DNA of 64,000 nucleotides from a virus (Duplodnaviria; Caudoviricetes): the IMG/VR virus record IMGVR_UViG_3300013308_000020, positions 1 to 64,000 of that record; one strand, given 5' to 3'. Numbering within the stretch: the first letter of the stretch is position 1; each line of letters starts with the position of its first letter. This document shows, piece after piece, positions 1,281 through 62,600 of the stretch. The position numbers were made by a program, and so were the translations under genes. The notes below the pieces were generated by a model. The model was not told the origin of the DNA, ran no database searches, and saw only the letters and a program-made list of their open reading frames with translations.

Positions 1281-2345
1281 TTATTGATTATTTAAGGTAT
1301 TATGTTGCATATCAGTTTGCCAAGTAGGGTCTTGAATCATACCTTTAAGATGAATGATTGTTTGCTCTACAACTAGTTGTGTAGAAGTGTCAGGCAAATC
1401 GACATTAACTGATCTAGCTTTTGAAGCTTCTCTAGGTTCTCTTATATAATCAATAACTAGGTTCTTTACTTTAAACGTAGTATCTTCATATACATATAAC
1501 CTATCATCACCAAGAGTAGATATAGGTGATTCCCAAGTAGTCTTTTCAAAAGGATGATTAAGAATATAATTCAAATTATTATCCTTACTAAGACGATTAG
1601 GATGTTTTGTAAATAAGTCTTTAGAGTCGTAACGATAAACCTTATTTGTAATAGTAGTAGGATTTACAGCTACGCTAATAGGGTTAGTTGTAACTGTAAT
1701 TATATAACTCATACTAAGCAATGCACTATTTGCATGTATAAAACTGTTAGGATAATATTTACCATTATATTTTTCCCAATACATATCAGAAGTATTATCA
1801 AGTATAAGTTTAACAACTTGATATTTATCATCTGAATCAGTTATTCCATTAGGCAAATAATTAGTTAGTTTAAAGAATATACCTCCTTGTTTTTTTAGCT
1901 CTAATTCCTTGAATGTGTCATAGTCAGCTAGAAAAGAGAAAGGATAGACATTTATCTTAGTATCAACTGGAGTCTTTACTATACCTTTTCTATTACATAC
2001 CATTTCAGATACGTCATCAAGTAAATGCCTATAATTAGGTGGAAGTATACCGTATGAGATATTCGTACTATCTATATAAGAAGGTATCGTTAAACCTTTA
2101 ACTTGTAATGTACTTAAACTATCTAATAGTCTTTGGTTCTGTTGAAAGTCAGTAGTACTACCAGAAGGGTTTGCGGATGTAGCAGGTAAGCGACCTCTCA
2201 ACTTACCCACTACATTATCCACAAACTTTCTTGTATAATAGTTAAGGTGAAAATCAATCTCTTCATCAAGAAGATTACCATTTGCATGGCTATTTAACTT
2301 CTGTACATCTTGGCGAACCTTGATATGAATTTCATCTATAGTCAT
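1281..2345 (-). CDS. Putative tail ring/adaptor structural protein
   Basis: 354 aa; N-terminal 'EEIDFHLN' and C-terminal 'DYIREP...DLP' pattern resemble crAss-like ring proteins; synteny downstream of the MCP. Confidence 0.55.
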   Translation of the reverse strand: MTIDEIHIKVRQDVQKLNSHANGNLLDEEIDFHLNYYTRKFVDNVVGKLRGRLPATSANPSGSTTDFQQNQRLLDSLSTLQVKGLTIPSYIDSTNISYGILPPNYRHLLDDVSEMVCNRKGIVKTPVDTKINVYPFSFLADYDTFKELELKKQGGIFFKLTNYLPNGITDSDDKYQVVKLILDNTSDMYWEKYNGKYYPNSFIHANSALLSMSYIITVTTNPISVAVNPTTITNKVYRYDSKDLFTKHPNRLSKDNNLNYILNHPFEKTTWESPISTLGDDRLYVYEDTTFKVKNLVIDYIREPREASKARSVNVDLPDTSTQLVVEQTIIHLKGMIQDPTWQTDMQHNTLNNQ

Positions 2346-2350
2346 AACTA

Positions 2351-3286: not shown

Positions 3287-3319
3287 GTTTTCTCTTTGTT
3301 TTGTTTACTTAAACATTTA

Positions 3320-4783: not shown

Positions 4784-4826
4784 TTCAATTGTATTGATTT
4801 ATTTGATTACTTATTTAATGAGTATA

Positions 4827-5399: not shown

Positions 5400-5422
5400 G
5401 ACATTTAATTAAGATAGTTAGT

Positions 5423-9055: not shown

Positions 9056-9056
9056 A

Positions 9057-13077: not shown

Positions 13078-13320
13078 TTACTTTTTATTTAAACGTTTAA
13101 GGATACTTTTACCAAACTTCTCTTTACCTGAATGCTTTCTATCTAAATATCTTTCAGGGTTTTTATAAGCCTTATTAAGATACTCAGCTCTTCTATTATA
13201 TTCTTCTTCTATCTTTCTCTTACGTTCTTCTGCTTCTTCATCAGACATAATAGTAGCACCTGAATTCTTAATCATATCCTGATATGCTTCATCAGGAATA
13301 TGCACATCATCTATATACAT
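13078..13320 (-). CDS. Hypothetical protein
   Basis: Coupled or overlapping with its neighbours. Confidence 0.6.
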   Translation of the reverse strand: MYIDDVHIPDEAYQDMIKNSGATIMSDEEAEERKRKIEEEYNRRAEYLNKAYKNPERYLDRKHSGKEKFGKSILKRLNKK

Positions 13321-13597
13321 AGTTATATTTACTTGATACTTGTTTTAATCTATATTTCTTTTGATATGCCTTTTGATAAGGTTTATACTTTGCTCTATTA
13401 TAACTTTTCAATAAAGCTTCAAATACACCATTACGAAGTTCTCTACCAAATACTAATTCTCTATTAGGACACATATACATAAAGGGTCTCATAGTAAGAT
13501 ACTCTTCAAAAGTATGTATATAAAATACATGCTTCTTATAATAGTGTCTATGATGTTCAAAGGCTTCTCTTTCCTCTTTATCTTTTATACGTATCAT
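13307..13597 (-). CDS. Hypothetical basic protein
   Basis: Packed ORF array. Confidence 0.55.
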   Translation of the reverse strand: MIRIKDKEEREAFEHHRHYYKKHVFYIHTFEEYLTMRPFMYMCPNRELVFGRELRNGVFEALLKSYNRAKYKPYQKAYQKKYRLKQVSSKYNYVYR

Positions 13598-13601: not shown

Positions 13602-13847
13602 TTAGTCAGCTAGAAATAGAAAAGGTTGCCTTATAGGTCTATTGGCATTATATTGTCTATTAAACTTCCAATGATGATAAGTAGGAAATCCATGATAAAC
13701 ATAATCACTAGGAAGTATGATAGTATGCCATCTAAAATAATGACCAATGATTAATTTCCTCCTAGCATTTTCTGCTAACATTTCTATATAATCTCTCAGA
13801 TATTCTTCTAGATAAGTATACTTATCTAATACTTCTTTTACATCCAT
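13602..13847 (-). CDS. Hypothetical protein
   Basis: Packed ORF array. Confidence 0.5.
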   Translation of the reverse strand: MDVKEVLDKYTYLEEYLRDYIEMLAENARRKLIIGHYFRWHTIILPSDYVYHGFPTYHHWKFNRQYNANRPIRQPFLFLAD

Positions 13848-21077: not shown

Positions 21078-21596
21078 GCATGGAATTAGAGTGGGGAGAC
21101 CTAACAGATTTTACTATTATGAAGGACATAATAGAACAGTTTTCATTAAAATTTAACAGCACAATAATATGTGGGATTCAATAGTAACGGGATATATAAT
21201 AATGCAAAAGATTGGTGCAATAATAACTTTTATAGTACTTGCTGCATGTATTATAGGAATAGGTGTAATTGCAATATTTGGTACAAATGAGTCAGAATAA
21301 TATTAATATACTGCATAATATCTCTTCTTTTTATAGCTGACATTAACTTATCCAAACGAAATGACACTAACAATCCATCAAATAATACATTATACTCTAT
21401 TTTTGAGTGATAGTGCAGAAAAGAGATTTACTCTTAAATCTAAACACAAAATTATTAGAGATTCACTTCGCAAATCTATAGTAATAAGTTCTACCTGCGG
21501 AATAATACATTTAAACTAGAAATTAAAACTTAACGTTTGGATAGCGTTGCTATTGGGGGTGTGAAAGCATCCCCTTTAGCATATCCATTTAATATT

Positions 21597-24390: not shown

Positions 24391-24439
24391 ATTATTTTAT
24401 ATTAGGATTAGAGCTAAAAAAAAGAAGAGGAAATAATTA

Positions 24440-29336: not shown

Positions 29337-29364
29337 TTACATCTCTTCTTTTTCTAGCTGAAAT

Positions 29365-36510: not shown

Positions 36511-37545
36511 ATGTTTGCTATAGATAAAGCAAAACCTATAGAGAAAGTTAATATATCCAAAAGACTTATAGAAGATAAACTTTCTCAGAAAGATTTATGG
36601 AGATATTATCTTAGTGGTTTTGATGTAGATGCTTGGTTAAATACTAGGCAGAATTTTAAATCTGAATTACGAACTGATAATAAACCTACTTGTTCCTTAT
36701 ATAGTAAAGGTCAGAATATTTATTATAAGGATTGGGCAGGACATTTTCAGGGAGATATTTATAATCTTGTTTGCTATCTGAATAACCTTTCTTATGGGGA
36801 TTTAATGGGTGCTATGAAAATCATAGTACGTGATTTTGCTCATGTGTTTTATGGTGCTAATGAAAGACAGAATGAATATATTAAAAGTCTTACTGTAGAA
36901 CTTAAAGAAGAAGAAAATAGATTTAGACAGATTCAAATTAAGAAGATGATTTGGACTGTTGAATTGGTTAAGTATTGGAATAGATATGAAATCACACCTC
37001 TTTCTTTTCTAGCTGACCATGATGTTTTCTGTCCTCAATATGTTTGGATTGATGGTAAACTAAGATATACTTATAGTAAACATGACCCTGCTATTGCTTA
37101 TTTCTTTGGCAATGGTAGATATAAAATTTATTTCCCTTTTAGAACTAAAGGTGCTAGATTTATTGGTAATTCTAATGCTATACAGGGCTATAACCAATTA
37201 CCTGCTACTGGGGATTTATTAATAATCACAAAGAGCATGAAAGATGTACTAGTATTAAAACTACTAGGCTTTAATGCTTGTGCCTTGCAATCAGAGCAAC
37301 ATCATTTAGAGAAGGAAGCTTATGAACATTTGTCCAAACGTTTTAAAAGAATTGTACTTCTGTATGACAATGATGAAGCAGGTAGAAATGGTGCAACAAA
37401 GATTTGTGATAGATACGATTTAACCTATATTGAGATTCCTAAAGAAGAATATGAGGATTCTAAAGATATAAGTGATGTATCTGATAATTATGGTATGCAG
37501 GAAGCATATCAGTGCATGGAAAACTTAACTTATCAATGGTTATGA
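36511..37545 (+). CDS. dnaG: DnaG-type (TOPRIM) primase
   Basis: 'SELRTDNKPTC', 'YKDWA', 'IITKSMKDV', 'LYDNDEAG', 'KDISD'. Confidence 0.88.
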   Translation: MFAIDKAKPIEKVNISKRLIEDKLSQKDLWRYYLSGFDVDAWLNTRQNFKSELRTDNKPTCSLYSKGQNIYYKDWAGHFQGDIYNLVCYLNNLSYGDLMGAMKIIVRDFAHVFYGANERQNEYIKSLTVELKEEENRFRQIQIKKMIWTVELVKYWNRYEITPLSFLADHDVFCPQYVWIDGKLRYTYSKHDPAIAYFFGNGRYKIYFPFRTKGARFIGNSNAIQGYNQLPATGDLLIITKSMKDVLVLKLLGFNACALQSEQHHLEKEAYEHLSKRFKRIVLLYDNDEAGRNGATKICDRYDLTYIEIPKEEYEDSKDISDVSDNYGMQEAYQCMENLTYQWL

Positions 37546-43530: not shown

Positions 43531-44554
43531 TTATACTGATGATAAAGGTAATCAATTAAAGTTCGATGGTAAGAATCTTAAAATATTATCAGAAGGTACA
43601 ACTAGAGACATTGGATGGCTCGAAATGGTTGACGGTAAAGGTCTTACTTATAGAAAAAAAGAACGTGAGCAAGACCGCTATCGTAAAACTGATGCATGGA
43701 GTATTCCTGCCGTAATTCTAGAGGAAGTTACACATATTCAGTATCAGAGTGATGCTAGAGCATATGAAATAGCTGTTAATATAGCTTTTTTGTATGGAAA
43801 GAAAATTAAATCTAAACCTAATCTTGAAGAGAAAGTTTATGTTCCTGTAGATAAATGGACTATCTTTAAGAGTATGGATGCTAAAGAGCAAGCTCGTATA
43901 GAGATGTTTGGTATTGAATGGTATAATAAACTTCATAAATTTATATGGAGTGATACTATGACTGACCTTTCTATATTTCTAGCTGAAAGAATGAAGGTAA
44001 ATAAAGTATATCCTGAATTTAAACATCTATTTAAAGCATTTGCTACTACTCCTTTATCTAAGGTAAGGGTTGTATTCATAGGTAATGAACCAATACAAGA
44101 AGAGATTTGTAATGGTATTGCCTATTATGTTGGATTACCTTTCTATGATTCTATTGAGATAAAGAATATTCAAGATGAATTAGAAAGAGAAGGAGATGAT
44201 TATATGATCAACTTTAATCCTAAGCATGTATTTGATTCTACTACTTGGGCAGAGCAAGGTTGTCTAATGATTAATCAATGTCTATCTGTAGAGAAAGGTC
44301 ATCTTATGACTCATGAAGGTAGAGGATGGGAAGAGCTAATTACTAATGTAGTTTGTGAATTAAATAAACAAGAACGTCCTATTTGCTTTGTGCTTATGGG
44401 AACTCGTGCTTATGGATTTGATCAATATATAGATAGTAATTATCATACTGTAATTAGAACAGATGTAACTTCTTCTAAGTTTATTGGTAGCAATTTATTT
44501 TGGGAAGTTGATGGCTTTATGAATAATAATTATAATACTAAAATTAATTGGTAA
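43496..44554 (+). CDS. Family-1 uracil-DNA glycosylase-like protein with an N-terminal extra domain and degenerate catalytic motifs
   Basis: 'VYP...LFKAF..TPLSKVRVVFIG', 'WAEQGCLMIN..LSV', 'H.GRGWE' and 'FVLMG' match UNG; GQDPY is GNEPI and HPSP is absent. Confidence 0.75.
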   Translation: MLRVNELKEKLNYTDDKGNQLKFDGKNLKILSEGTTRDIGWLEMVDGKGLTYRKKEREQDRYRKTDAWSIPAVILEEVTHIQYQSDARAYEIAVNIAFLYGKKIKSKPNLEEKVYVPVDKWTIFKSMDAKEQARIEMFGIEWYNKLHKFIWSDTMTDLSIFLAERMKVNKVYPEFKHLFKAFATTPLSKVRVVFIGNEPIQEEICNGIAYYVGLPFYDSIEIKNIQDELEREGDDYMINFNPKHVFDSTTWAEQGCLMINQCLSVEKGHLMTHEGRGWEELITNVVCELNKQERPICFVLMGTRAYGFDQYIDSNYHTVIRTDVTSSKFIGSNLFWEVDGFMNNNYNTKINW

Positions 44555-44754
44555 TGGATAAGGTAATAGTATTTCTAATCTATCTATATGTTATAGTAGC
44601 AGGATTAATGGCATTAGTATTTAACTATCAATATGCTAGAGAACATGGCTTTATTTCATGGTTATTTTTTGGAGAGATAGTAGCTACGGTTAAAGCTATA
44701 TTTTGGATATTCTTTATATGGTAGTAAAAATATTTTGCTAATTAAGTCAAAAGA

Positions 44755-44786
44755 TTTGCAAATGTCGTTTCTAGTATGTATCTTTG
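44755..44786 (+). promoter_or_regulatory. Consensus Bacteroidota sigmaA promoter
   Basis: TTTG-N20-TATCTTTG. Confidence 0.75.
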
Positions 44787-44794
44787 GTACATAA

Positions 44795-44965
44795 TGATTG
44801 AGTTGCGGCAATTGTTAGAGATTTGATAATGATACTTGTGAGAGAGTAGGTCATAAAGATAGTGCTGATAGTTATGGAGATACTGTCAACCTTTCAGTTC
44901 AAGCCCCTGATGTAGCCGCAACCTATATCGGGGGTTTACTGTTTTCGACCTATACTGAAATATGA
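44795..44965 (+). ncRNA. Candidate structured, pseudoknotted ncRNA or 5' leader
   Basis: 15-bp hairpin 44901-44937 whose loop is complementary to 44802-44808; further helices 44866-44888, 44846/44947 and 44892/44954; no long ORF. Confidence 0.55.
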
Positions 44966-45088
44966 GTAACTTGCACTTTAAATCAGTGCTTGGAACAAGC
45001 AATTAGTCTATGATGAAAAACGTAAGTAGACAACAGTAATAAAGAGTACAGGACGACACTGTTTGGTCGGGGAATAAGTAAGGGAGGG

Positions 45089-45529
45089 ATGGTACTATGT
45101 TTAACCCAAAACGTCATGTTAAAACTGTTAGAGTTACTAAGGACTATATACTTAGATAAATTCAACTTTAAATCAAAAGAGTATAAAGAAGGCTTTCTAA
45201 AAGCAATACAAGTAGTTGAGTTTCATGGATTCAAGGCAGAAGCAATACATGAAACAAAGACGTTAAGAGAGAGAATAGAACAGGCAACGATAGAGTTAGA
45301 ATTCTTGAAGTCTCAACTTCAGCTAGAAAAAGAAAAGATTGTTGCGCTCAAGCATAGACTAGATCAACAACGTAGTGTAATAAATACTCTTACTGATACT
45401 GATACTAAAAGAAGCATTAAACGTTTAAGATATATAGCGAATATTCTTCTTAGTCATACTAAGGATTCACATGAGAAAGTTGGTGAATGTATAGCTTATA
45501 TCCAATCAATTAAAGAAAATAAGAACTAA
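45089..45529 (+). CDS. Coiled-coil hypothetical protein (start uncertain)
   Basis: Coiled-coil core; TAATG-coupled to the next gene. Confidence 0.5.
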   Translation: MVLCLTQNVMLKLLELLRTIYLDKFNFKSKEYKEGFLKAIQVVEFHGFKAEAIHETKTLRERIEQATIELEFLKSQLQLEKEKIVALKHRLDQQRSVINTLTDTDTKRSIKRLRYIANILLSHTKDSHEKVGECIAYIQSIKENKN

Positions 45530-47469: not shown

Positions 47470-47778
47470 ATGAGTTACGAAATAACGAGAGATTGTAGAT
47501 TTGGTAGACGAGGTAAGATAGTAGATTATCCTACTTTTATGAGTGCTAATTATGAAGAACAAAGAACATGCTTTAAAGAAGTTGTTACGTATAGTAGTGA
47601 CTCTCATTATGATGGCAGCAATACTAATACTTCTTTCTTAGATCCTTTAGATTCTTTACTTAGTAGTGCAGATGATGCTTCTTCTTTTTCTAGCTCTACT
47701 GATTCATCAGATCATTCATCTTTTGATGGATTTGGTGGGGGAGACTTTGGAGGCGGAGGAGCGAGCGACGACTACTAA
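47470..47778 (+). CDS. Hypothetical protein with Ser/Asp/Gly low-complexity tail
   Basis: Ends 'FDGFGGGDFGGGGASDDY'. Confidence 0.55.
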   Translation: MSYEITRDCRFGRRGKIVDYPTFMSANYEEQRTCFKEVVTYSSDSHYDGSNTNTSFLDPLDSLLSSADDASSFSSSTDSSDHSSFDGFGGGDFGGGGASDDY

Positions 47779-49372: not shown

Positions 49373-52300
49373 TCAATGTGCCGAAGTAGTTTCATCAAGG
49401 TCAGTATCAATATATCTACTAACATCTTTCCAAGAAGAAGCTAAAGGAACAGCTTGACCAAGAAGATAATTCCAACCTGGAATATCTCCCTTTTGAGTTC
49501 TCTTACCTTTAAGTAGACCTTCTATTAGAATATCTTTCATAGCCAAACTCGTTTTATATAACTTAGGTAAAGCTGAAGCTTGACTTTGAACAGAATTAAG
49601 AACATCCCAAAAGGCAATACCTTGAGATTGATCATCAGCAAGTCTTAGTAACTTACGTTGAATCATTTTCTCCCAATCAGTCATTTTATCATCATCATCA
49701 TCATCGTCTCCATGTAGAACTGCATTAGCAACATTCATACCAGCAAGGAATGTACCTGCTACCATTAGTTCTACAATACGTTGTCTCTGTTCTTGAGGCA
49801 TAGTAGACCACTTATAATTAGGATCATTCTGAAGTCTTAATGTAGCACCCAACCATTTTACTAATACTCTTGCACGACCTTCATTAATTCTAGCTATCCA
49901 AGTATAAACATCTTCTCCCGCTTCATTTTGACGTAGTTCATATCTACCTAAAGAGTCATCATTATATTTAGATTGACCCATACTTTCAAGTACGTTAGGT
50001 AAATATTTCTTAAACTGATTAAGTAATTGACCCATAGCTGTAAGGTCAAGAGAAGTTCTTTCATCTTGTCTATAACCACCATGTACTAATGAAGATACCC
50101 TTTTGAATTTACGAATCTCTTCAGCAGATAAGGCTGTAAGAGTTTCTCCATTAGCTAACTTCATATTACGATCTCCTACATATTGAAACTTACCATCTTT
50201 AAAATCATAAGAATCCCACATAGACATACTACCCATTTTATAATGATGTGCTTGAGCACCTAGTAGTGTAAGAGCAGCATATTCTTCACCTATAGAATGA
50301 AAGAAATAAAGGTTTGACCTATCTAATAGACTGTTTTTCTTAAATTGAAGTTCACTTTTACGTATAGCATAATCATAATTATCAGGTAGATAATCTAAAT
50401 GTTTAGCTAATTGCCAAAGTTTACTTTTCTCTTTCTGACCCATCATTGCATGGAATAAGAAATCAGCATAGTTTATTTGTGCTCTAGCTAAATGTCTTAT
50501 TGAAAAATCATAATCTTCAGGATTAGCACCAGGTAACCTCTTCGCAATAGAACCTACAATAGCTTTATTAGAGTTCATTACTACAATTAATCCAGCATTA
50601 AACATAGCAGGAATAGGTTTTACCCACATAGCTGACCATGATACCCAAGATTTTATTCCTCTTAAAACTTTATCAATAGATACTGTTTTCTTTTCTCCCT
50701 CATAAGTGAAAGTAATATGACGACTAGTCCATTTAGGATTTCTTTTAGTATCCTGAACATGAAGAAGTATTTGATCTTGTAGGAATTCAATAGTATTCTT
50801 GAACTCATTGCCTTCATTATCAGTCTTAGTTTTAAGCAACTCAACTATACCATCTCCTAAAGATTGCATATCATCTAATTCATCTTTCATAATGACATTA
50901 GATATGAAGTTCTTAAATGATATTTCAGAAGATAACGTATGGTTTTGAGACTTAATTATATTAGAACTACCCATAAATTTAAGTGGTAATCCTCCTTTTT
51001 GTTTATCATTAGGTTTATATTGATTTGCAGTAAAATCAGATAGTACAGAATTTATAAAATAATCCTTATACTCTTTACTCATTCTACCATTTCTTTCAAT
51101 AGCTTCTTCTCCTGTCATTGCATAACGAGGCATAAAGTCAGGGTCAAGTTCAGCAGGAAGTCCTTGTGCTTCAGCAATAGTTACAGCATGTTTACCTCTA
51201 TAGTGAGATATTTTACCTACTGCTTGTTTATATTCTTTCTGCATCGTTTCACGAATATACTTATTATATTCATATTGTGCTTGAGAATATTTACCACTAT
51301 CAACTTGCGCTTGAGTAATAACTCTAGTATAATAACCATCGTGAGTATCATCCTTCTTGTATTCATTCATGAACTCAAATACTTCTTGATATTTTAAAGC
51401 ATTAAGACCACCAAGAGTAGCTTTCTTAAGCAAGTCTTTCATTCCATGCTTATCGAAATACTCAGTATAAACTTTCTTTCCAAGTTCATCAAGATGCTCA
51501 TGAATCTCTCTTATTCTATCTCTACCTGATTTCTGTCTATTAGTTAGAATTTTTATAAAGCTTTTTATACGAGGATTCTTAATACTATTCATATTACCAA
51601 TCTTACGTTTAATCCAACCCATATCAGATATATCATCTGTAGTAGGATCTTCACCTAATTCGGCATTAACTTTAGCAACTTGGTCTACAAGTTGTAAACG
51701 TTTGGCTTCAGCAGCACCAATTTCAGCATAACTCTTCTTCTTATTTTCTTTAAGGTCTTTAATATAATTAGTATGTTCACGAAGTTCATTAGCCCAAAAA
51801 ACTTTCTTTTCAGCTACGGTCATGTTCTTAGTTCTGTCATCTACTAATTCATCATTATTACCTATATATTGAGTAGGGTCAAATAAACCTTGTGCTTTAA
51901 GTTGAGCATACACATCTAGTTTTTCATTAGCTGCATCAGCATAATAAGATTCTATCAAACCTAAATAAGGTTCAATATTTATCTCATGAACTTGAGTAGG
52001 GTTATTTTTAGATATTCCTACAATAGCAAGATCTTTATATCGTACAGTTTTATCCTTCATACTTTCTTTAAAAATCATAGCACGAAGAACTACTTCAAGT
52101 TTAGCTTTATTAAGCTTGGTATCAAGTATAGGTTCTATTTGATTTCTACCATACTTCATAAAGTTAGCATAAGTAGCATCTGATAATAAGTTACCAGTTT
52201 TCCAGTCAAATATAGAAAATAACCCTTTTGCATCTTGTACTAGAGTATCTATAGTTGTAGCAATACCCATCAACTTAGAAGCAATAGTAACTTCAGAAAG

Positions 52301-53647
52301 TACTTTATCTTTATCTTTAGGTTTAATTCCTTTCTGATAGGTGTTAATTCCTACAGCTTCAAATATTTCTCCTATCTTTTCTTCTACCCAAGAGTATTCT
52401 TCTTCATCAATAGCAAAGGATTCTCCTTTCTTACCTGCATAATATCCAGCTAAATCCTTAGCAATCTTCTCACTAGGTTTAATAATATTTTGAATAATAG
52501 CATGGACAATCTTACCTCTAATTCTCCAGTCAGTATTTTGCTTCATTCGCTTATACTCAACTAGTTCTTTATAGGTCATTGTCTTACCATCTACAGAAAT
52601 ATCTTCTGCAAATTGTTTCTTAGCTTTTCTATATTCCTCACGTGCAGCATGTTCTTCATAAGATAGATTAGGTTCACCTTTAGGATTATCATTACTATAC
52701 ATCTTATGTAAGACTTCTGTACCACGACCAAATTCAAAGTCTTTATTTACATCTGTATAATGAGTTTCATCAGGAGAAAGTTCATATCCTTTTTCTGCAA
52801 TATGTTGTTCTACATCTTCAAGAGTAGCTCTTTGCTGTTGAATATCTCTAGATATTTTACCTTTACCTTCACGTAGTTTACCACGTACCATATCCATAGC
52901 AAGTTTCTTTGCTACGTTAGGTTGAATACCTAGTTTCTCTCCGATTGCTCTAAAGACTCTACTTAACCAAAAGTTCCAACGTTTAACAGCTTCGGGATTA
53001 TCAAAAAGGTCAGCAGCTTCTACACCAATAGCAGTAGTAAGAATCTCTTTATCTAAAGCTCTTCCGCTTAGGTCAGGATATGTTTCTCTAACTTCATCTG
53101 CTAATTTACTATCTCTTAGTTGGTCTACTCCTTGCTGAATAATAGGGTCATCTCCTAGAATATCAATATAAACGTGTCCATATTCATGAGGTATAGTATC
53201 TTTAAATACCTTGTTAGGGTTTAGAGTAATAGTTGCACTTCTATCTCCTGTACCTTTAACATTAGCATTCTCACCAAGAGAGTTATCAAACTTCACATTA
53301 ACATCAATACCTGCATCAGCAAAGGTTTTGGTTAATCCTTCCATTTTTCTAGCTGAATCCTCAAGTGTATCTTCTTGGGTTCTCAGCTTATAGCTAGAAG
53401 AAAGAGAAGCATTAAGTGTAGCAAGAGTTGGTTGACCATTCTCATCAAGTTCACCTCTATACTTAGATGGAAAATATTCCCAATCACCATTCTTAGATTT
53501 AAAGGCAGATGTATAGATAAGATTATACATACGTATTGCTTCATTTCTTTTCATCCCCGATAAAAGAAGGTCGGTGAAGAGCTTGCTCTCCACCATTTCA
53601 CCTTCTTTATTCTTTATCAGGGGCACTAGATTACAAGTTGCGCCCAT
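49373..53647 (-). CDS. Giant putative ejected virion protein: zincin motif plus RecB-type PD-(D/E)xK nuclease
   Basis: HEYGH at 53174-53188; 'GKIVH', 'SEV', 'TIDTL' and 'FDWKTG' (52193-52207); adjacent to the vRNAP gene. Confidence 0.7.
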   Translation of the reverse strand: MGATCNLVPLIKNKEGEMVESKLFTDLLLSGMKRNEAIRMYNLIYTSAFKSKNGDWEYFPSKYRGELDENGQPTLATLNASLSSSYKLRTQEDTLEDSARKMEGLTKTFADAGIDVNVKFDNSLGENANVKGTGDRSATITLNPNKVFKDTIPHEYGHVYIDILGDDPIIQQGVDQLRDSKLADEVRETYPDLSGRALDKEILTTAIGVEAADLFDNPEAVKRWNFWLSRVFRAIGEKLGIQPNVAKKLAMDMVRGKLREGKGKISRDIQQQRATLEDVEQHIAEKGYELSPDETHYTDVNKDFEFGRGTEVLHKMYSNDNPKGEPNLSYEEHAAREEYRKAKKQFAEDISVDGKTMTYKELVEYKRMKQNTDWRIRGKIVHAIIQNIIKPSEKIAKDLAGYYAGKKGESFAIDEEEYSWVEEKIGEIFEAVGINTYQKGIKPKDKDKVLSEVTIASKLMGIATTIDTLVQDAKGLFSIFDWKTGNLLSDATYANFMKYGRNQIEPILDTKLNKAKLEVVLRAMIFKESMKDKTVRYKDLAIVGISKNNPTQVHEINIEPYLGLIESYYADAANEKLDVYAQLKAQGLFDPTQYIGNNDELVDDRTKNMTVAEKKVFWANELREHTNYIKDLKENKKKSYAEIGAAEAKRLQLVDQVAKVNAELGEDPTTDDISDMGWIKRKIGNMNSIKNPRIKSFIKILTNRQKSGRDRIREIHEHLDELGKKVYTEYFDKHGMKDLLKKATLGGLNALKYQEVFEFMNEYKKDDTHDGYYTRVITQAQVDSGKYSQAQYEYNKYIRETMQKEYKQAVGKISHYRGKHAVTIAEAQGLPAELDPDFMPRYAMTGEEAIERNGRMSKEYKDYFINSVLSDFTANQYKPNDKQKGGLPLKFMGSSNIIKSQNHTLSSEISFKNFISNVIMKDELDDMQSLGDGIVELLKTKTDNEGNEFKNTIEFLQDQILLHVQDTKRNPKWTSRHITFTYEGEKKTVSIDKVLRGIKSWVSWSAMWVKPIPAMFNAGLIVVMNSNKAIVGSIAKRLPGANPEDYDFSIRHLARAQINYADFLFHAMMGQKEKSKLWQLAKHLDYLPDNYDYAIRKSELQFKKNSLLDRSNLYFFHSIGEEYAALTLLGAQAHHYKMGSMSMWDSYDFKDGKFQYVGDRNMKLANGETLTALSAEEIRKFKRVSSLVHGGYRQDERTSLDLTAMGQLLNQFKKYLPNVLESMGQSKYNDDSLGRYELRQNEAGEDVYTWIARINEGRARVLVKWLGATLRLQNDPNYKWSTMPQEQRQRIVELMVAGTFLAGMNVANAVLHGDDDDDDDKMTDWEKMIQRKLLRLADDQSQGIAFWDVLNSVQSQASALPKLYKTSLAMKDILIEGLLKGKRTQKGDIPGWNYLLGQAVPLASSWKDVSRYIDTDLDETTSAH

Positions 53648-53649
53648 AG

Positions 53650-56600
53650 TTATTTACATAATTCGTCTAAGTCTACAATATCAGTTTCACTTAATTCTTC
53701 TCGATTAAAGTTAATAACTTTTCTACCATTATCCAACCCATAAGTTACTTTATCCGCACCTTCTCTATCTTCTAAAATCTTACTACCTCTTGTATAAGTT
53801 ATACTTTTAATAGTATAATCAAAAGCATTAAGTCTTTCAGAATCATTCAAAGTCCTTAAAGTAATTGTATCTTCAAGTTCAAAATGATTATATTTAGGAT
53901 CGCCTGAATATTCACTTTGGTCATTAGCTTTAGGAACACTACGAGCTTTAACATCTCTTTTAAAGGCATCAGCAAGACTATAACCAAAGAACATAACGTT
54001 TTTATCAAACTCATATCCTTGTTTACTACCTTTCTCTTCCCTAGCAAGATATTGATAATATACATAAGGATCTCCTTCTTTACTTGGTACTCTTACATAG
54101 GATTTCTCATAGTAACTTAGGAAGTCAGGGAAACCATTAATCTTAATCTCCTTAGTTAGTGTTGGGTCATTATCATTAGGTGCAGCAGCATCAGCTACTT
54201 GAGTTGTAGGTTCTCCTTGTTTTTCATCTAAACTAACTGTAGCTTCATCTTTATTATCACCATCAGGTACAGCTTGAGTAGTTTCAGAAGCTTTCTCATA
54301 CTCATACTTTAACTCATAGTTAACTCTTTCACCATTAGGAAGTATATCAAAACCTTGTTCGGGATAAATAGTTCCAGGTTTTTTGACAAACTCTTTATTA
54401 GTAGCAAGTTTACTAGGAAACTGTTTAGCAAATTTAGCTGCAAAGTATTCATTAAGATTCTTAAATCTCTTTTCAACTATCTCAGGCTTTCTAGCTTCTG
54501 TAGGACTAAGTAAAGTATTAAAGAACTTATTCATTGCTGTATCGAAATCTGCATAGACTTCGGCAGGTAGTAATAAGCTATAAGAACTTAGACCAAAAGA
54601 TAGACCTTGATTCAAAGCAGCATATTTAACAAAGTTATGCATAAAAGGAGTAAATTTACCATCAACTTTTAATTCATTAAAAGCTTTTTGTAAATCCTGA
54701 ATCTCAGCTTGTTCCATTGCAGCAGTAGTATTATATTCTACTTGATACATGTTCTTGCCTACTCCTAACTGTGGTGCTATTCTTATCTTACTTAAAAACT
54801 TATTAGCAGGATTAGCTTTTTGTGCAGCACGAACTTCTTCAACAAAACTTTGGTTGAAAGCATTAAGACCTACTAAATCTTTAGCTCCTTCTAATGGTAT
54901 TTGCTCATTCTTTTTATTTAAAGCAAATTGTTTAAATGTAGCATTAGAAGTATTAAAGTTAACAGTAATTCCATCAGATACATAAGATAAGCCTGATAAG
55001 AACATACGCATAATTTCATCACGTATCATTCTCTTATTCTTATTGATATTTGAATCTAATCTAATTCCAGTATGTCTAATTGCTGCTTCAGCAACCTTAT
55101 TTAGTTCCTCTCTATGTTTATAGAATTGATTATTAACAATACTACTAACTTTAATTAAAGAATGGTGTGCTTCTTTAATATGAGGTAAAGACATAATATT
55201 TATAGTACCTAAAAGCCCATCTTTAGCAGCTTTAAGATCATCAAATAAATCTACTAAGTCTTGAATCTCTTCTTGTGCTACTGGAAACTGTTTAAGTATC
55301 TTAGTTGCTTTAGCTACTTGACCTATATCTTCACCATTACTATTACCATTAATAAAATTAGTTAATGCTTTTTGCTGAACTATAAGCTCTTCTATAGTAA
55401 GTTTATCTATACTAAAATCTTCTTCATTTCCTTTTTTAATTAAATTATCAAGAGCCTCTTCATCAAGTTTAACATTATCTTTAACTGCATCTAATGCTTC
55501 AGGAGTAATATTACCAGCTTTTTCAGCAATAAGTGCATTTAATACTTTTACACTTTCTGATTGAGCAAGTTTCATATTACGAGCATCAGCAAGATTCTTA
55601 ATTACAGGAGTAAGAAAATGTTTAGATGTAGCTACAAGCGGCATACCAACAGCAAGCATACCAAAATAAGCTTTGCCAGTATTATTGGTAAGTTTGATAA
55701 TAGGTAGAATCTGTTCTTTAACGTTATCGAGAGCAGCATTTATAAGTGCATCAAAAGTATCAGAAACGTTGAAAGGTTTACCATTTTTCTGTTTCTTACC
55801 ACTCTCTTTAATAGTTAATTTATTATATACTTTACCATCAAATGCTAGCGTTTTTGTTTCTGAAACATAAGGAGTATCATAAACAATATTAAATTCATCT
55901 TCTACTTCTTTAAAAGCAGCTTCAGCTGTTGCACGGAATTCTTCATAAGTTATTTCACCCTTATTACTTTGTGTAACAGCCTTATTATAAATATCCATTG
56001 CTTTATTAAAAGCTTCAACCTTTTCAGGAGTTTTGAAACGTTTAATAATTTTTATTCTAGTATCAAAATCAGGTTTATAAGATTGAAGAGTATAAGAAAG
56101 ACCTCTAACTAAATCTGCAATAGCACCTACGATAGCAGTACCGCTAAAGTTATCTTGATGTATTTGCATTTGATCAATAGGGTCATTTAAGTCATACTCT
56201 TTTTCAACAGTTACACCTATTGCTTTTAGTTTACTAAATACAGATTCATTATCTTCCAAATCATTTAAACGATCCATACTAATAGGAGTCATCATACGCT
56301 CTTCATTTCTTCTAGCTGTAACTACTTCTAAGAATTTATCTACGATTTCATTCTTAATAGCAGAATCTAAAGCACCATCAAGCAAATTAATATACTTATT
56401 AATTCTTCTGATTTCCTCTTTATCATCTTTCTTATCTAGAATTTTCTTTCTTTCTTTAAGGTCTTTAATCTCTTTCTCCATTCTAGGTATAAACTTAGGA
56501 ATCTTTTCACCATCAAGTTTTCTACCTATAATAGCACCATGCATAAGCAAATCTTTATAATTAGCTCTTTGTGCATAGTCAGCTTTAGATTCTTTTTCAC

Positions 56601-59600
56601 CTTGTTTAGGAAGATATGGAGTTCTTCTCATAATGAAAAGAGCATCTATATCATAGTCACTACCATGAAGAATAGTAAGTTCTCTAGGAGCAATTACAAC
56701 GTTAGTTCCTTTACCATCATAGAATCCTACAATCTTAATAGGTAAAGCGGAGTGTAATTCAGTAGAAGGAATACGGAAAGCTAATGCACTTTCAAATAGA
56801 ATATCTCCCATTTGAAATTGGTCTTTATAGATATTATCCATAAGTACCTCTGCATACTGAACTTTCTTACCATCAACAGTTGTTTCTGTTCTGATTTTAA
56901 GTCTACGGCTTGATTTCTCTTTACCGCTTTCATCTATATACTTAATACCAAAGTCAGCTTGTAATGGTAATTTAGTACCATCATACTTAACTTGAACTGT
57001 AGCTTTAGATACAGTAGAAGCAATCTGAGTTACAACTTTATTAACTACAGTAGGAAAGTTAAGAGATAGTAAATAGTTACCATCTTTATCTTTAGCACTC
57101 ATGAAGTCATAAAGTCTTGCATCAGTAGCACCTAAAGAATCAAGGAAGAACTTTCTAAGTTTAGAAGCATTACCATTACCTCCACCTAGTTTCTGATTCA
57201 TTCTATTTAAACCTCTTCTAATTAACTTAGCATTCAGTTTAAACAATTCATTAGCAGCTTTACTATTTTTACCGTCAATATCAACAAAATAGGTAATCTG
57301 AGTAGGGTGAGCAGTTTCTCCTTCAAGAGTATGTACTGGATTTAACTGAATTCTCCAATTACTATTATCCAATTCAACTATAGAACGAGGGTCAATACCT
57401 TTTTGCTTTTTACCTTGAGCATCAGTATAAACATTTTCTTCGTTAATACCATGTCCAGTAAGGTTTTCAGGAGCACCAATTTTAAAAGCAGATATGAATA
57501 CATATTCATCTACTTTTTTATCATACATTTCTTGACGTAATCTAACTAATTCAGGGAAACGTTCAGAACCATCTTTATTATAAAGAAGTGCATCTGATAG
57601 TTCAATAGTACTATATTTCATACCTTGTGGTACACCTAATTTATTTAAAGCCCAGTATACTGGTTTCATAATAGCACCTAAAGCCATTTCTTTACCGAAA
57701 CCTTTTCTAATGTCAAGACCTCTTTCAGGAGTATGATAACCTTGAGCATCAGCAGCTTCACCTGTTTTACCATAGAAAGCTTGATGTTTTTTGAACTGTT
57801 TCTCAGTAATACCGAACATTATTTTCTTGGCAACAGCAACGGTAAACTTCTCTTTCATGAAGCCTTCATTGTTAACCATTCCACTATAACCCATCGCAAA
57901 TGCAATAGACATACGTTTAATTTGGTCAGCAGGATTTTTATAGAACGCTTGGTCTCCCATTACCAATTGGTTCAGGAAGTGTCCGTTCATATAATTGTTC
58001 TTCATCCATAAGTCCATTAAAGGTAGCAATTGTTCTTTAGTCAATTGATACTCTTTATTCTTTATAGACTGTAAACTTTCAGGTAAAGTATGTTCTTCTA
58101 ATAATGCTTTACCATCAGCAGTTTTGTATTTATCATCTATATGAGCAAGAAGTTTATTTTGAGTTTTATGAACATCATAATCTAATACAAACTTAGCATC
58201 AATTAGTTTATCTACTAATCTCTCACTTTTCTTCTCAATAGCTGCAAATACTTTATCTATTTTAGTTTCTAGTAACTTATTGAATTGAGATTCCTTACCT
58301 GAAATATCCATTGCTTCATATTCCTGAAGGTCTCTTAATTCAGTTATATCAGCTTCAGTTAAACCTGCAAGATAAGACTTATTATAGTTCTTACCATAAT
58401 TCTGAGCATCTTGATAAGGTCTCTCAACTTCTTGCATTACTGCTTGATAGATTACGTCCTTAATCTCACTAGACTTTTTAAGGTTTAATTCAGCACTATA
58501 AGGGGCAGGTTTATTTGATATAGTATAAAACTGTTGAATATATCTAAAACCTTTAGATGCTTTAGCATTACCAATTAAAGAAAGAAAAGTATAATTAATA
58601 TTACGATGTAACCATTGCTCAGAAGTCTCATTTTTATATGGAGTAGGTTTGTATTTATTATCCTTTTCCTTTATAGAATCATGGTCTACAAAACTATGAA
58701 TCTTATTATGAGCAGCTTTCTCACGTTTAGTTTTACCGTTACCCATAAGAATGTTTCTACGGAATACAGCAGATTCCATAAAATCCGGTCTATTTTCTAC
58801 AAAACCTTTAGTAAGATGAATAAGAGTATCAACACCAAAAGAACTATTTGTCCATTCATAACGTTTCTTACCATCACCTGATATATAAGATACTGGACGT
58901 AAATCCTCACTATCTTTAACAAGTAAATCTGTAAGATTCTCTATACGTTGATTAGAGTCTTTTAAGAATTGATCCCAAGTAAACGTAACCTTTTTCTCAA
59001 CACCTTCATTACCATCATCATCAATATCAGTTTTTGTTTCTTCTTTACCTACAGCTTCGACTTGTTGAAATAAGTTTTTAAGAGAAGCATGAATATTAAA
59101 TTCTTCACCTTTAACAATAGTAGGTTTAGGTAAACCTAGATAATGTATTAAGTCCTCAATATTCTTTGTTGTAGCTTCAGTACTATCATCTGCTGTTTCT
59201 AAGAAACGTTGCTTTAAAGCATCAGGAATAGTTGGTCCTTTAGTCATAAAAGCAGTTTCTACAGCAGCACGCATATTTTGTTTAGCACCTTGTTCACGTA
59301 CAGAAACATAACGATAACTAACACCATAGAATTCTCTTTTTTTCTGACTATCCCATTGGCTAGTAGCTCTAACAGCTATCATCACATTCTTTTTACGTTG
59401 TGAACCAATAGATTGACGTATTTGAGTTAGAACTTCTTTTGCTACTGCACGTTTATATTGAAGATTAAGTCTTTCATTATTAACTACATAACCTTCTTTT
59501 TCTAATGCAGCTGCAATAGATTTCATGAAAGCAACAGAAGTCATTTTACCTCTTGATACAGATGAAGTTTTATCCATTGCATTCTTAAAGATAAATACAT

Positions 59601-62600
59601 CATCATTTTGGAAATCATAACCTATCTTATCAAAAGTAGGTAAAGGTTTACCATTAGCATCACTATTATCATTAGCTGTAGTTATTAAGTCTACAACTTT
59701 ATCATAGATAGCAGCAACTTTACGATTAGATGTTTTAGTAGGACCAAAGTTAAGACCTATTTGTTCTATCATTTTACCTAAGTCTTTGGTAGTTACACCA
59801 ACAAAACCTTCAAGTAATTTGATATAGCCCATACGAGGGTTAACTATATTACCTCCTTCATCTACAATAGTAGCTAAGAAATCTTTAACTCCGCGTTTAA
59901 CAGCAGATTCGTTATCTATTCTATCTGATTCAATAATATCTTCGTAAATACTACCATCAGTTTGAGCATCTTCTATTTCTTGTGCTATTTCTTCATCAGT
60001 CTCAGCAAGATTTTCAGTAAACTCTTTATTACCTAAGTATAAAGTAGGATAGATTTCTCTTAATAAATCTTTAGATTTACGAGGGTCATTAAGAATAGTA
60101 TAAAGTTCTTTACTAAAAATATCATCTTCGTCAGGTTGCTCTCCTTCTTCTACAGTTTCAGCTATTGATTCAGTATAAAGGTCTAAATAATATTTAAATT
60201 CCTCACGTAAATCATTAATAGCTTCTTCAAAAGGCATAGGAGTAGCTTCTTTCATATTAGAGCCGTCCTTATTAAGATTTACTTTCTTTAAAGCTCCTTC
60301 TTCATCATCCCATTCAGTAGCATTTAATCTATTAGACATACCGCTAGTAACTAAATCTCTAGCTTTTCTGTAATGGTCAGTAGTTAAATAATCTTCACGG
60401 ATTTTAACTAAATTTCTAGTTGCATCTTCTACTACTTCGCCTTCTTTATCAAGTAGACCTGCATCCATAGCATCAAATAGACTCTCAATATTATCGAAGT
60501 TAGCTTTATATAAACCTAACCAGTTTAATATTTTCTTGAATCCGTTTATTAATGCAAGAGATACAACACCTCTTTTAGTAGTCCAGTTCTGATATTGTTC
60601 TGCTAACCATTCTTCAACACGTACAGGAGTAATATGTTCAAGTGCAGGATTAATACGTCTAGCAGTTTTAATTAATTTTTCTCTTTCTGCTTCAGTTAAA
60701 TGGTTATTAAAGATACGGTGAAAAGCTTCATGTCTAATTACTTTATGATATACACCTTCTGCACCTTCAAGAAGATAAATAATACCTTCTCTGAAATGAC
60801 CCCAAGCAGCTCTACCATCAGTAAGTTTAAGCATTACTGCTTCTGATACAACTTTAACATCTTCCTTTCTAATAGAAGGGATAATCTTACGAACTAAATC
60901 ATAAGGATTTTTAACTAAATGTCCTAAAGAAGTACCACGTTCTTTAAGTAATTCTCTTTTATTTCCAAACTTTTGTTTATTCTTAGCTTTTGCAAGATCA
61001 GCTTTCTTTTTTGCTTTAATCTCTGCCGGAGTTAGAACATTCTCATTAACTATAGCTTCTTCTTCTTTAGCCTTTTCAGCTTTATAAGTTTCATCTATTG
61101 CAGAGATTTCATTTTTAGTATAATCGTAATGGATACTACCTTTAGTATTATCAGTAATATAACGATTATCATCAATTATAGTATCTCCATACTTATGTGC
61201 CCTGTCCATCTTATTCTTATCTGATTGTCCAGTTAGAATTTGAGCTACAGGAATACCTAAAAGATCAGATAGATATTTAACTCTACCTTTACCTGAAGTT
61301 ACTATATGAATATCTCCTTTTTTGATAGAACCATCAGCTAATCTTTTAAGAAGTAGTTTACCTAATTCAGTAAGTTCTACTTTAGCTAACATGTTATCTA
61401 CTTGCTCTTCATAGATACCTTTCTCGAAGAAGAAAGCTTGCTTCTTACTAGCAGAACTATGTTCAAAATCTAGTTTCTCAACAGCTTCAGAAGTCTTAAT
61501 GATAGTATCATCTACATCTATAAGTAATTTCTTACCTCTAGGTAGGAATTTATCAAGTTCTTCTTCTTTAACTTCAGCAGCAGATTTAGCTTTAGGTGCA
61601 GCAGGTTTAGGTGCAGCTTGAGTTTCAGCAGGTTTAGTTACCTCTCTTTCTTTTCTAGCTGACGGTCTCTCAATCGAGATTGCTGATGAAGCAACTTCTT
61701 CAAAAGTATCATTAATATAATCAGAAACATTAGCAAGACTAGTACCTTCTGATTCACTATTCTCTTGAAAGTGTTTAATATCTAAAGGAACATGAAGAAG
61801 TGAAGATTTACCTTCTCCATCAAATTGCATTAACTCTTTTAACTGTTCTAAAGAGAAAGTTTCACCTTGTTCAATTAATAAACCTTTAGCAAAAGATTCA
61901 ACAGTGAAACCAATACCGTTACGATTTGGAATCTTTTTGTAAACTCTAATAGGATATCCATTAGGATTAGCATTAGCTTTTGCAATAGCATTAAGAGCAA
62001 TTTGAGCAGGTCCAGCTACACGTTTCTCTACAGCAACTCTTTCAAGATTTTCAATAGGAACAATCATAATTGTACCATCAGAAGCTTTCACTTGTGCAGA
62101 TGTTACTTTATTGTCCTTTTCAATAAGTTTAACTACTCTTGCATTACCATCAAACATTTTATTGTCTGATGTATCTTTTACATGGTGATTTTGTTTAATG
62201 TCTTTAGAATCTTTGAAACGTTCTAATTCTTTACTATATACAAGGTCATGTAATTTATCTCTTGCATCTAAGAAATCATTAAAGTTTTCAGTAGTTACTT
62301 TAGGTAATACACTACCTATTATTTTAAGTAAATATTCATCGTCAGCTTTAATGATTTCACTATATTGAGGAGTACCAAATTCTATACCCTCCATAAAATA
62401 ATCCATCTCTTCAATAGCAGCTATTAACTTCTTAATAGGTCTAGTATATTTAGAGTGTTTATTTTCATCAAGGAAAGCAGGAGTTAAACGGATAAACTGT
62501 TGCTTACTAAATTTAGCAGAACGAGTAAGATTATCAAGTACAAGATAAGGCACACCTGCTTGAGGAGTAAAAGGAATTTCCTTACCCTTATCTTTATAAC

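What the first reader, a model, noticed from the sequence alone, without database searches (positions are those of the whole stretch)
1924..61662. Genome-wide, regularly spaced asymmetric 20-bp motif (pyrimidine tract + TTTMTAGCTGA), independent of gene orientation
Seen: exact TTTCTAGCTGA on + at 29351, 37006, 43976, 53346, 61652 and on - at 1924, 13606, 45319; the variant TTTATAGCTGA on + at 9005 and 21330. Every copy is preceded by a ~10-nt pyrimidine tract (e.g. CATCTCTTCTTTTTCTAGCTGA, CACCTCTTTCTTTTCTAGCTGA, ATCCTTCCATTTTTCTAGCTGA). The 9005 and 21330 copies share 18 identical bp. Plus-strand gaps are about 12.3, 8.0, 7.7, 7.0, 9.4 and 8.3 kb, and a one-mismatch copy at 15092 (TTTCTAGCTCA) splits the 12-kb gap into two ~6-kb gaps. 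Copies lie in intergenic DNA, in sense CDS and antisense within the portal, the nuclease protein and the RNAP gene, so a peptide motif does not explain them. A rough independent-base estimate at ~30% GC gives well under one exact 11-mer per window. Inference: a DNA-level cis signal. Options are virion-RNAP promoters spaced to pull the genome into the cell (T7-like), programmed nick sites (T5/phiKMV-like, repairable by the encoded ligase), or a Chi-like self-mark for an injected helicase-nuclease.
Basis: partly seen in the sequence, partly recalled or inferred. Interest (0 to 1): 0.85.

Follow-up and report, generated by a model that had tools for sequence, protein, structure and literature searches.

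The report
Evenly spaced crAss-phage DNA signal
A 23-base one-sided DNA word is kept by selection about every 7-8 kb, on both strands and even inside genes, in this soil crAss-like phage and its relatives; it is a real and apparently undescribed phage-private signal whose reader is unknown, most likely a start signal for a phage polymerase.

Summary
The 11-mer occurs 10 times in the window against 0.36 expected. It is the 3' end of a 23-bp asymmetric motif: ATC box, pyrimidine tract, invariant TAGCT, then GA. There are 16 strong and about 8 weaker copies in the 92-kb crAss-like genome. A codon-preserving shuffle gives 2 coding copies, not 14. Copies use one sense frame, three antisense frames and spacers, so this is a DNA-level signal. 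Site clusters are far more evenly spaced than chance (CV 0.24, P<1e-4).

Relatives at 65-95% identity keep the sites at orthologous places, with some gains and losses. A relative with only 45% PolB identity carries the same core. No other virus or bacterial contig is enriched.

This scan has already reported evenly spaced, strand-alternating motifs with other sequences in gut crAss phages. I re-checked one case, crAss001.

Function is not shown. My best guess (about 0.28) is a T7-like promoter or start signal for the phage's own polymerase. Priming sites, HU/IHF-type architectural sites, nicks and a Chi-like mark remain open. Known nick motifs, Chi and stoperators each fail a defining feature.

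The parts
1923..1945 (-). strong motif copy (29 bits), sense within ORF 1281-2345
   Evidence: identical in L009 and kept in L010
1878..1904 (+). weak variant copy (tract + TAGCTCTA) facing the 1923 copy across 18 bp
   Evidence: its core is a conserved island in L010
8994..9016 (+). strong copy, antisense, 39 nt inside the portal gene; gained in this lineage
   Evidence: relatives have 100%-identical flanks but a degenerate site
13605..13627 (-). strong copy at a gene junction, 7 nt before the ATG of ORF 13307-13597
   Evidence: kept in L009 and L011
15081..15103 (+). strong copy with one core mismatch, antisense near a gene 5' end
   Evidence: kept in L009
17985..18007 (-). weak copy (17 bits) in the divergent intergenic region at the head of the leftward gene block
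21319..21341 (+). strong intergenic copy, 19 nt before a conserved 52-aa ORF that is followed by a conserved hairpin terminator
   Evidence: in four relatives homology begins exactly at the motif
24408..24434 (-). degenerate copy here, strong (30 bits) at the same place in relative L036
29340..29362 (+). best copy (35 bits), intergenic, 2 nt before the ATG of ORF 29365-30162
   Evidence: identical in L035 and L036, kept in L037-L039 and L045
29637..29659 (-). strong copy facing the 29340 copy, antisense in ORF 29365-30162
   Evidence: a positional orthologue is kept in L041, which has 45% PolB identity; homology to L037-L039 ends here
36995..37017 (+). strong copy, sense inside the primase gene
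   Evidence: kept in L035, L036, L037 and L045
37783..37805 (-). weak here (18 bits), strong (25-28 bits) in relatives
43965..43987 (+). strong copy, sense inside the UDG-like gene
45318..45340 (-). strong copy, antisense in ORF 45089-45529
47676..47698 (+). weak variant copy (17 bits)
53335..53357 (+). strong copy, antisense, 290 nt inside the 1424-aa cargo-like gene
53385..53414 (-). weak copy with a small insertion, facing the 53335 copy about 30 bp away
61641..61663 (+). strong copy, antisense in a low-complexity linker of the giant virion RNA polymerase gene
53650..64000 (-). candidate reader (inferred only): giant virion RNA polymerase gene, running on to 68241 outside the window
   Evidence: similar to crAss001 gp47 and gp50; no link to the motif was tested
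36511..37545 (+). candidate reader (inferred only): DnaG-type primase
   Evidence: PHROG 12622, E 2e-31; primase is the only replication gene universal in Crassvirales (PMC10136315)

Best explanation
The motif is a phage-private, strand-specific signal read on DNA by a phage-encoded enzyme. The most likely concrete mechanism is a start signal for RNA synthesis. On this reading it is a promoter of the phage's own (virion) RNA polymerase with T7-like logic: about 21 conserved bases upstream, a T-rich melting stretch, and initiation at the conserved GA.

Copies that face genes would drive those genes. The co-directional plus-strand series crosses both gene blocks every 6-9 kb. It would give early rightward transcription of the whole chromosome: sense in the replication block and antisense over the late block. 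Such transcription could help draw in the DNA, prime it or time gene expression.

Shown here: the motif is real, selected at DNA level, evenly spaced and conserved. Inferred only: that a polymerase starts there.
For: - The motif carries about 30 bits over 23 bp, like promoters of single-polypeptide phage polymerases. Conservation rises toward the 3' end and stops abruptly after GA plus one base, with no information in 60 bp of flanks.
- Sense copies lie 2, 7 and 19 nt before start codons at 29340, 13605 and 21319. A weak copy heads the leftward block at 17985.
- At 21319 the motif is the only conserved sequence upstream of a conserved unit made of a small ORF and a hairpin terminator, in four relatives. 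Homology starts exactly at the motif.
- The plus-strand series is regular across oppositely oriented gene blocks (CV 0.42, P=0.003).
- The sequence is lineage-specific. The same core is kept at 45% PolB identity and is absent at 40-42%.
- crAss001 has a different dispersed word. This is the pattern expected when a polymerase and its promoter co-evolve.
- The giant polymerase gene is present.
Against: - About half of the copies face against the local genes or lie deep inside long genes.
- Opposite-strand copies 18-300 bp apart are conserved. As promoters they would collide.
- In phage phi14:2, early transcripts made by the virion polymerase showed no common upstream motif (preprint 10.1101/2020.03.07.982082).
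- crAss001's word shows no plus-strand dominance.
Confidence: 0.28

Rival explanations
1. Priming or origin signal. The pyrimidine strand would be the template. A primase or an initiator-primosome would recognise the invariant core and copy into the tract, making a purine-rich RNA primer. Facing pairs would then be outward-firing, bidirectional starts.
For: - A pyrimidine tract lying 5' of a fixed core is what a purine-started primer template looks like (inference).
- Each strand has its own fairly regular series.
- Facing pairs are conserved next to the polymerase gene, and also in a distant relative.
- Primase is the only universally kept replication gene in Crassvirales (PMC10136315).
- An earlier, unchecked note places pairs of the gut-phage motif in front of repL.
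Against: - About 30 bits is far more than any described DnaG-type primase site, which is 3-5 nt.
- Spacing of 6-12 kb per strand is much longer than Okazaki fragments.
- No RepL or replisome-organiser domain was found in this genome.
- The ORF beside the conserved pair is not similar to the phi14:2 replisome organiser.
Confidence: 0.17
2. Binding sites of a phage architectural protein, with the conserved crAss HU/IHF-like protein as the obvious candidate. The protein would bend or anchor the chromosome about every 7.7 kb, for packaging or for topological domains.
For: - Even spacing is strongest at the level of site clusters, irrespective of strand (CV 0.24, P<1e-4).
- An A/T tract next to a flexible CTAG step and a fixed box resembles sites read through DNA shape (inference).
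- ORF 80857-81387 lies where crAss001 has its HU/IHF-like gp42.
- A low-confidence model of that ORF (pLDDT 56) has HU and IHF chains as its best fold matches, with probability 0.7-0.8 and E 0.1-0.7.
Against: - There is no Pfam or PHROG HU/IHF match, and the fold evidence is weak.
- HU/IHF sites are usually much less specific than 30 bits.
- A bend site needs no strand pattern, yet facing pairs are favoured.
Confidence: 0.17
3. Programmed single-strand nicks made in virion DNA by a site-specific nickase and sealed by the encoded ligase, as in T5, phiKMV and tf.
For: - The motif is long, asymmetric and dispersed, lies in and between genes, and keeps its positions in relatives, as nick motifs do (PMC3517423, PMC11780129).
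- The genome encodes an ATP-dependent ligase and an HNH endonuclease.
- 11 of the 16 strong copies lie on one strand.
Against: - Every described nick motif lies on one strand only. Here 5 strong and several weaker copies lie on the other strand.
- Opposite-strand copies 18-64 bp apart are conserved and, if nicked, would amount to a double-strand break.
- The HNH gene is a mobile homing-type gene, not a fixed one.
Confidence: 0.12
4. A phage-private Chi-like or self mark that tames a phage helicase-nuclease travelling in either direction.
For: - Both orientations occur everywhere, at a density of one per 4-8 kb.
- The motif is absent from bacterial genomes.
- PD-(D/E)XK nucleases are a hallmark of Crassvirales.
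Against: - The short core alone is not enriched (31 against 24.9 expected), so about 20 nt is needed, compared with 5-8 nt for all known Chi sites.
- The proposed nuclease (ORF 49373-53647) has no family match.
Confidence: 0.08
5. Operator or roadblock sites of a global repressor, like the stoperators of Cluster A mycobacteriophages. Such a repressor would keep the genome silent in a carrier state.
For: There are many asymmetric copies spread over the genome, some at gene junctions.
Against: Stoperators are co-oriented with transcription and mostly intergenic. Here orientation is about 50:50 and 14 of the 16 strong copies lie in coding DNA. No repressor was identified.
Confidence: 0.07
6. Not a signal at all: a chance or coding by-product, or a miniature mobile element.
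For: The antisense reading encodes common Lys/Glu/Arg-rich peptides. The codon-shuffle null is not zero (mean 2.1). One unrelated phage ORF carries the same 23-mer.
Against: Observed counts are 7-fold above the codon-preserving null. Four reading frames and spacers are used. Copies arise by substitutions without insertions or deletions. One copy is a 21-nt perfectly conserved island within a stretch that is only loosely aligned, with indels.
Confidence: 0.01

Closest known systems
Promoters of phage-encoded single-polypeptide RNA polymerases (T7, T3, SP6 type)
   Same: About 23 bp and about 30 bits. Asymmetric, with conservation ending just past a purine start. There are 10-20 copies per genome, some inside genes. 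The sequence is lineage-specific and the copies form a co-directional series along the chromosome.
   Different: T7-type promoters all point with the genes. Here about half point against them and facing pairs are conserved.
Nick-associated motifs of T5, phiKMV-like and tf/Rembedalsseter phages
   Same: Dispersed, asymmetric and independent of genes. Positions are kept among relatives, and the function is still unknown after decades.
   Different: Those motifs lie on one strand only and are 9-19 bp long. This one is on both strands, with close opposite-strand pairs.
DNA uptake sequences (Haemophilus USS, Neisseria DUS)
   Same: A core plus a T-rich flank. Both orientations occur, more evenly spaced than chance, mostly inside genes at tolerant places, often as inverted pairs, with lineage-specific dialects.
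   Different: Uptake sequences belong to competent bacteria, occur about once per kb, and are read by a surface receptor. No comparable process is known for a phage.
Evenly spaced, strand-alternating motifs reported earlier in this scan for gut crAss-like phages
   Same: Same order of viruses, same copy number, both strands, inside genes, even spacing, inverted pairs. I confirmed over-representation and strand alternation for crAss001's own 8-mer.
   Different: The sequence is entirely different: AT-rich tract plus TAGCT here, GC-rich cores there. Here the plus strand dominates and alternation is not significant. Those earlier reports are unpublished AI notes.
Stoperators of Cluster A mycobacteriophages
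   Same: Tens of asymmetric sites spread over a phage genome and read by one phage protein.
   Different: Stoperators are 13 bp, co-oriented with transcription and mostly between genes.

Membership tests
Phage nick-associated motifs (T5, phiKMV, tf) | All copies lie on one DNA strand | tested here: not met
   11 strong copies on the plus strand and 5 on the minus strand, with further weak copies on the minus strand.
Phage nick-associated motifs (T5, phiKMV, tf) | A physical single-strand interruption at the motif in virion DNA | not testable with these tools
Phage nick-associated motifs (T5, phiKMV, tf) | Motif enriched and positionally conserved among relatives | tested here: met
T7-type phage polymerase promoters | Conserved block of about 20 bp ending at a purine start, with no conservation beyond it | tested here: met
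   Information profile
T7-type phage polymerase promoters | Copies oriented with the genes they precede | tested here: not met
   About 10 copies are sense or intergenic-sense and about 12 are antisense.
T7-type phage polymerase promoters | Transcripts start at the motif | not testable with these tools
   No RNA data are available.
Chi sites | A short (5-8 nt) word that is itself over-represented | tested here: not met
   The 7-nt core occurs 31 times against 24.9 expected. Only the roughly 20-nt composite is enriched.
Chi sites | The word is shared with, and enriched in, the host chromosome | tested here: not met
Stoperators (Cluster A mycobacteriophages) | One orientation relative to transcription, mostly intergenic | tested here: not met
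IHF/HU-type specific sites | Match to the IHF consensus, and a cognate HU/IHF-family protein encoded by the phage | tested here: inconclusive
   No clear consensus match by eye. No Pfam hit. The syntenic ORF gives only weak HU/IHF fold matches from a low-confidence model.
REP/REPIN or MITE-like mobile repeats | Copies arise by insertion and lie between genes | tested here: not met
   Gains occur by clustered substitutions with no insertions or deletions, inside conserved genes.
Genome-wide crAss-phage motif (earlier notes of this scan) | Crassvirales genome with 15-30 copies on both strands, inside genes, more evenly spaced than chance, kept in relatives | tested here: met
Genome-wide crAss-phage motif (earlier notes of this scan) | Strand alternation | tested here: inconclusive
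   Not significant in this genome (P 0.13-0.6). Significant for crAss001's word (25 of 31 strand switches, P=0.0005).

The most novel reading that the evidence does not exclude
Crassvirales as a whole, from human-gut to soil lineages, may punctuate their chromosomes with a lineage-specific, roughly 20-bp oriented signal placed at even intervals on both strands. On this reading the signal is read by a conserved virion or replication protein in a DNA transaction with no described counterpart, for example docking of packaged polymerase or cargo along the genome, or dedicated bidirectional start points. It would then be a new class of viral cis-element, not a promoter, nick site or Chi site.
Probability: 0.3. 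Interest if true: 0.9.

Novelty: new variant of a known kind. Interest (0 to 1): 0.68.

Why it matters
crAss-like phages are among the most abundant viruses known, yet how they replicate, package and first transcribe their DNA is largely unknown. No promoter of their giant virion polymerase has been defined.

A strongly selected, evenly spaced, oriented 23-bp signal gives a concrete handle on one of these processes. It survives inside essential genes and persists down to 45% polymerase identity.

A deep-branching soil lineage has its own version, with a sequence unrelated to those noted in gut phages. This suggests the feature is order-wide and that its reader co-evolves with it. That makes the question testable in cultured phages such as crAss001, which has its own word.

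Tried and rejected
- **Peptide motif:** rejected. One sense frame, three antisense frames and spacers are used.
- **Composition or codon artefact:** rejected.
- **Short Chi-like core:** the 7-mer alone is not enriched.
- **Hypervariable interiors of facing pairs:** seen at 82442/82506 and 1896/1923 but not at 29340/29637. Dropped as a general claim.
- **Higher nucleotide identity in sites than in flanks:** not significant (0.88 against 0.85, P=0.1). The motif score is preserved rather than the exact sequence.
- **Homology breakpoints at sites:** only two loci (21319, 29659) out of roughly 20. A conserved island next to variable DNA partly explains these.
- **Enrichment of ATG just after the motif:** partly real gene starts, otherwise 6-14-codon ORFs. 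Not pursued.
- **A 9-base stretch shared with crAss001's word:** explained by antisense Glu-Glu-Ile codons.
- **Guide-RNA idea:** no Rfam family, no tRNA and no complementary non-coding copy were found.
- **Protein domains and homology:** no RepL, replisome-organiser or HU/IHF Pfam domains. ORF 29365-30162 is not similar to phi14:2 g022, and the protein-atlas look-up was uninformative.
- **Collection scans:** the virus and bacterial scans gave only single hits. L017 and L023 are one unrelated phage that carries the 23-mer antisense in a long ORF.
- **More distant relatives:** those at 40-42% PolB identity show no copy, and no clear motif of their own in 22 kb.
- **Tools and records:** The prototype crAssphage record is not in the collection.
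Full report
**What the window is.** The window is the first 64 kb of a 92,206-bp virus record with 32% G+C. Its portal, large terminase, major capsid protein, tail tubular protein and giant polymerase proteins resemble those of crAss-like phages only distantly. The portal is about 26% identical to the nearest catalogued Crassvirales. Genes run leftward over 1-17.6 kb and 49-92 kb (structural, cargo and polymerase genes). They run rightward over 18-49 kb: PolB, two helicases, primase, ligase, exonuclease and a UDG-like gene. Its close relatives were found on JGI metagenome contigs, and one was also found in an ENA sample.

**The observation.**
- The 11-mer occurs 10 times against 0.36 expected. 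There are 11 copies in the whole genome and none of the backwards control.
- Aligning the copies shows a unit of about 23 bp. It has a weakly conserved A/T-ATC-T box, a run of pyrimidines ending in four or five T, one variable base, an almost invariant TAGCT, then GA and A or C. There is no information in 60 bp on either side.
- A weight-matrix scan gives 16 sites above 20 bits. In genome coordinates they are 1923-, 8994+, 13605-, 15081+, 21319+, 29340+, 29637-, 36995+, 43965+, 45318-, 53335+, 61641+, 70959+, 77484+, 82442+ and 82506-.
- Six more sites score 15-20 bits. A further class has the same tract followed by TAGCTCTA.

**It is a DNA-level signal.**
- Sense copies use the only open frame. 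Antisense copies use all three frames, and three strong copies are intergenic.
- Shuffling synonymous codons while keeping every protein leaves 2.1 coding sites on average (maximum 5) against 14 observed.
- The 7-nt core without the tract is not enriched (31 against 24.9). Whatever reads the signal therefore needs the long composite.
- In long genes the copies lie in tolerant places, such as the first 20 codons of the portal and a low-complexity linker of the polymerase.

**Spacing and orientation.**
- Merging sites closer than 1.5 kb gives 12 clusters with gaps of 4.6-11.6 kb (CV 0.24). With the same merging applied to random sets, P<1e-4.
- The plus-strand series alone is regular across both gene blocks (CV 0.42, P=0.003).
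- Orientation relative to genes is close to 50:50.
- Minus-strand copies tend to follow a plus-strand copy at short range. The facing pairs are 29340/29637, 36995/37783, 43965/45318 and 82442/82506, plus the weak partners 1896/1923 and 53335/53392.
- Strict strand alternation is not significant here (P 0.13-0.6).
- Tight pairs can fold as hairpins in single strands. Folding is only moderately favourable in this genome (z about -2 for two pairs, and none for the 1896/1923 pair) but strong in a distant relative (z -7.8).

**Relatives.**
- Contigs at 65-95% nucleotide identity keep the sites at orthologous positions, including both members of the pairs.
- The 82506 copy is a 21-nt perfectly conserved island within a stretch that is only loosely aligned, with indels.
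- Sites also turn over. The 8994 copy arose in this lineage by four clustered substitutions within flanks that are 100% identical. A copy in the portal C-terminus exists in L010 only. The 24412 and 37783 copies are stronger in relatives than here.
- Plain identity is not higher in sites than in flanks. The motif is preserved, not the exact letters.
- A phage whose PolB is only 45% identical (L041) has four copies in 19 kb with the same ATC box and the same core, and one base of the tract changed. They include an intergenic facing pair and the positional orthologue of the 29637 copy.
- Three phages at 40-42% identity have none.
The word is therefore private to this clade and is not a host word.

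**Link to earlier work of this scan.** Earlier agents reported evenly spaced, often strand-alternating motifs of 16-24 bp, with quite different GC-rich sequences, in gut crAss-like phages including the prototype. These are unchecked AI notes. I tested the idea on the cultured phage crAss001.
- One 8-mer occurs 32-33 times in 100 kb, where I estimated about 2 by hand from base composition (not a tool result), on both strands and within a pyrimidine-rich context.
- Its strands alternate (25 of 31 switches, P=0.0005), and its minus series is regular (P=0.0014).
- Its combined spacing is not unusual.

I found no paper that describes such motifs. The present finding therefore extends the phenomenon to a deep soil branch of the order, with a new sequence.

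**What it does.** Nothing here shows function, so I rank mechanisms by fit.

1. *Start signal for a phage polymerase (about 0.28).* Support:
   - The size and information content resemble T7-type promoters, and conservation ends sharply after a purine pair.
   - Three sense copies lie 2-19 nt before start codons.
   - At 21319 the motif is the only conserved sequence upstream of a conserved unit of small ORF plus terminator, and homology in four relatives begins exactly there.
   - The co-directional plus series crosses the whole genome regardless of gene direction.

   Against:
   - Half of the copies are antisense, and facing pairs are conserved.
   - No common motif was found upstream of early transcripts in phi14:2.
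2. *Priming or origin signal (about 0.17).* The pyrimidine strand would be read as template. This explains the tract and the outward-firing pairs. It does not explain the 30 bits or the long spacing, and no initiator domain was found.
3. *HU/IHF-type architectural sites (about 0.17).* This fits the cluster-level regularity. The ORF syntenic with crAss001 gp42 gives weak HU/IHF fold matches from a poor model. There is no sequence-family hit.
4. *Nicks (about 0.12).* All known nick motifs lie on one strand. Here both strands carry copies, some only 18-64 bp apart.
5. *A Chi-like self mark (about 0.08) or stoperator-like operators (about 0.07).* Each fails a defining feature.

**Verdict.** The feature is real, selected and apparently undescribed, and it can be tested directly in cultured crAss-like phages.

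Noticed in passing
window 25485-25940 (+): An HNH_3 homing-type endonuclease gene (Pfam E 7e-11). Relatives carry it at different places: there is an extra paralogue just after PolB in L036 and L039, and the gene order is swapped in L035 and L040.
   Followed up: partly
window 21524-21590 (+): A roughly 60-nt non-coding element that is nearly invariant in four relatives at 62-93% flank identity. It has a GC-rich hairpin followed by T's (RNA fold -28 kcal/mol, z -3.7). It is probably an intrinsic terminator behind a conserved 52-aa ORF.
   Followed up: partly
window 1-123 and genome 92084-92206: The 123-bp terminal repeat lies inside an ORF with Glu/Lys-rich repeats, and relatives L009 and L010 read straight through the junction. 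It is probably an assembly overlap of a circular or permuted genome and not a physical end.
   Followed up: partly
window 44725-45088 (+): The largest non-coding gap carries a Bacteroidota-type promoter (TTTG, then TAtcTTTG). It matches no Rfam family. It lies between the motif copies at 43965 and 45318.
   Followed up: partly
L046+L047 (Bacteroides phage crAss001, MH675552): crAss001 has its own dispersed 8-mer, with 32-33 copies in 100 kb on both strands and significant strand alternation. This is a cultured system in which the phenomenon could be tested.
   Followed up: partly
L048 (Cellulophaga phage phi14:2, first 50 kb): An AT-rich 12- to 16-mer recurs five times. It may be that phage's counterpart of the signal.
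   Followed up: no
genome 83-92 kb (outside the window; L034): An 11.5-kb stretch has no motif copy. It coincides with tail-fibre-like paralogous segments that are rearranged in relative G001, and may be recently acquired DNA.
   Followed up: no
genome 80857-81387 (-) (L034:857-1387): A 176-aa ORF next to the tail tubular gene, syntenic with crAss001 gp42. A low-confidence model has HU/IHF proteins as its best fold matches.
   Followed up: partly
L017:1804-1826 and L023:1952-1974: An unrelated virus contig, sampled twice, carries the exact 23-mer once. It lies antisense in a 750-aa ORF and is taken as coincidence of Lys/Glu-rich coding.
   Followed up: yes
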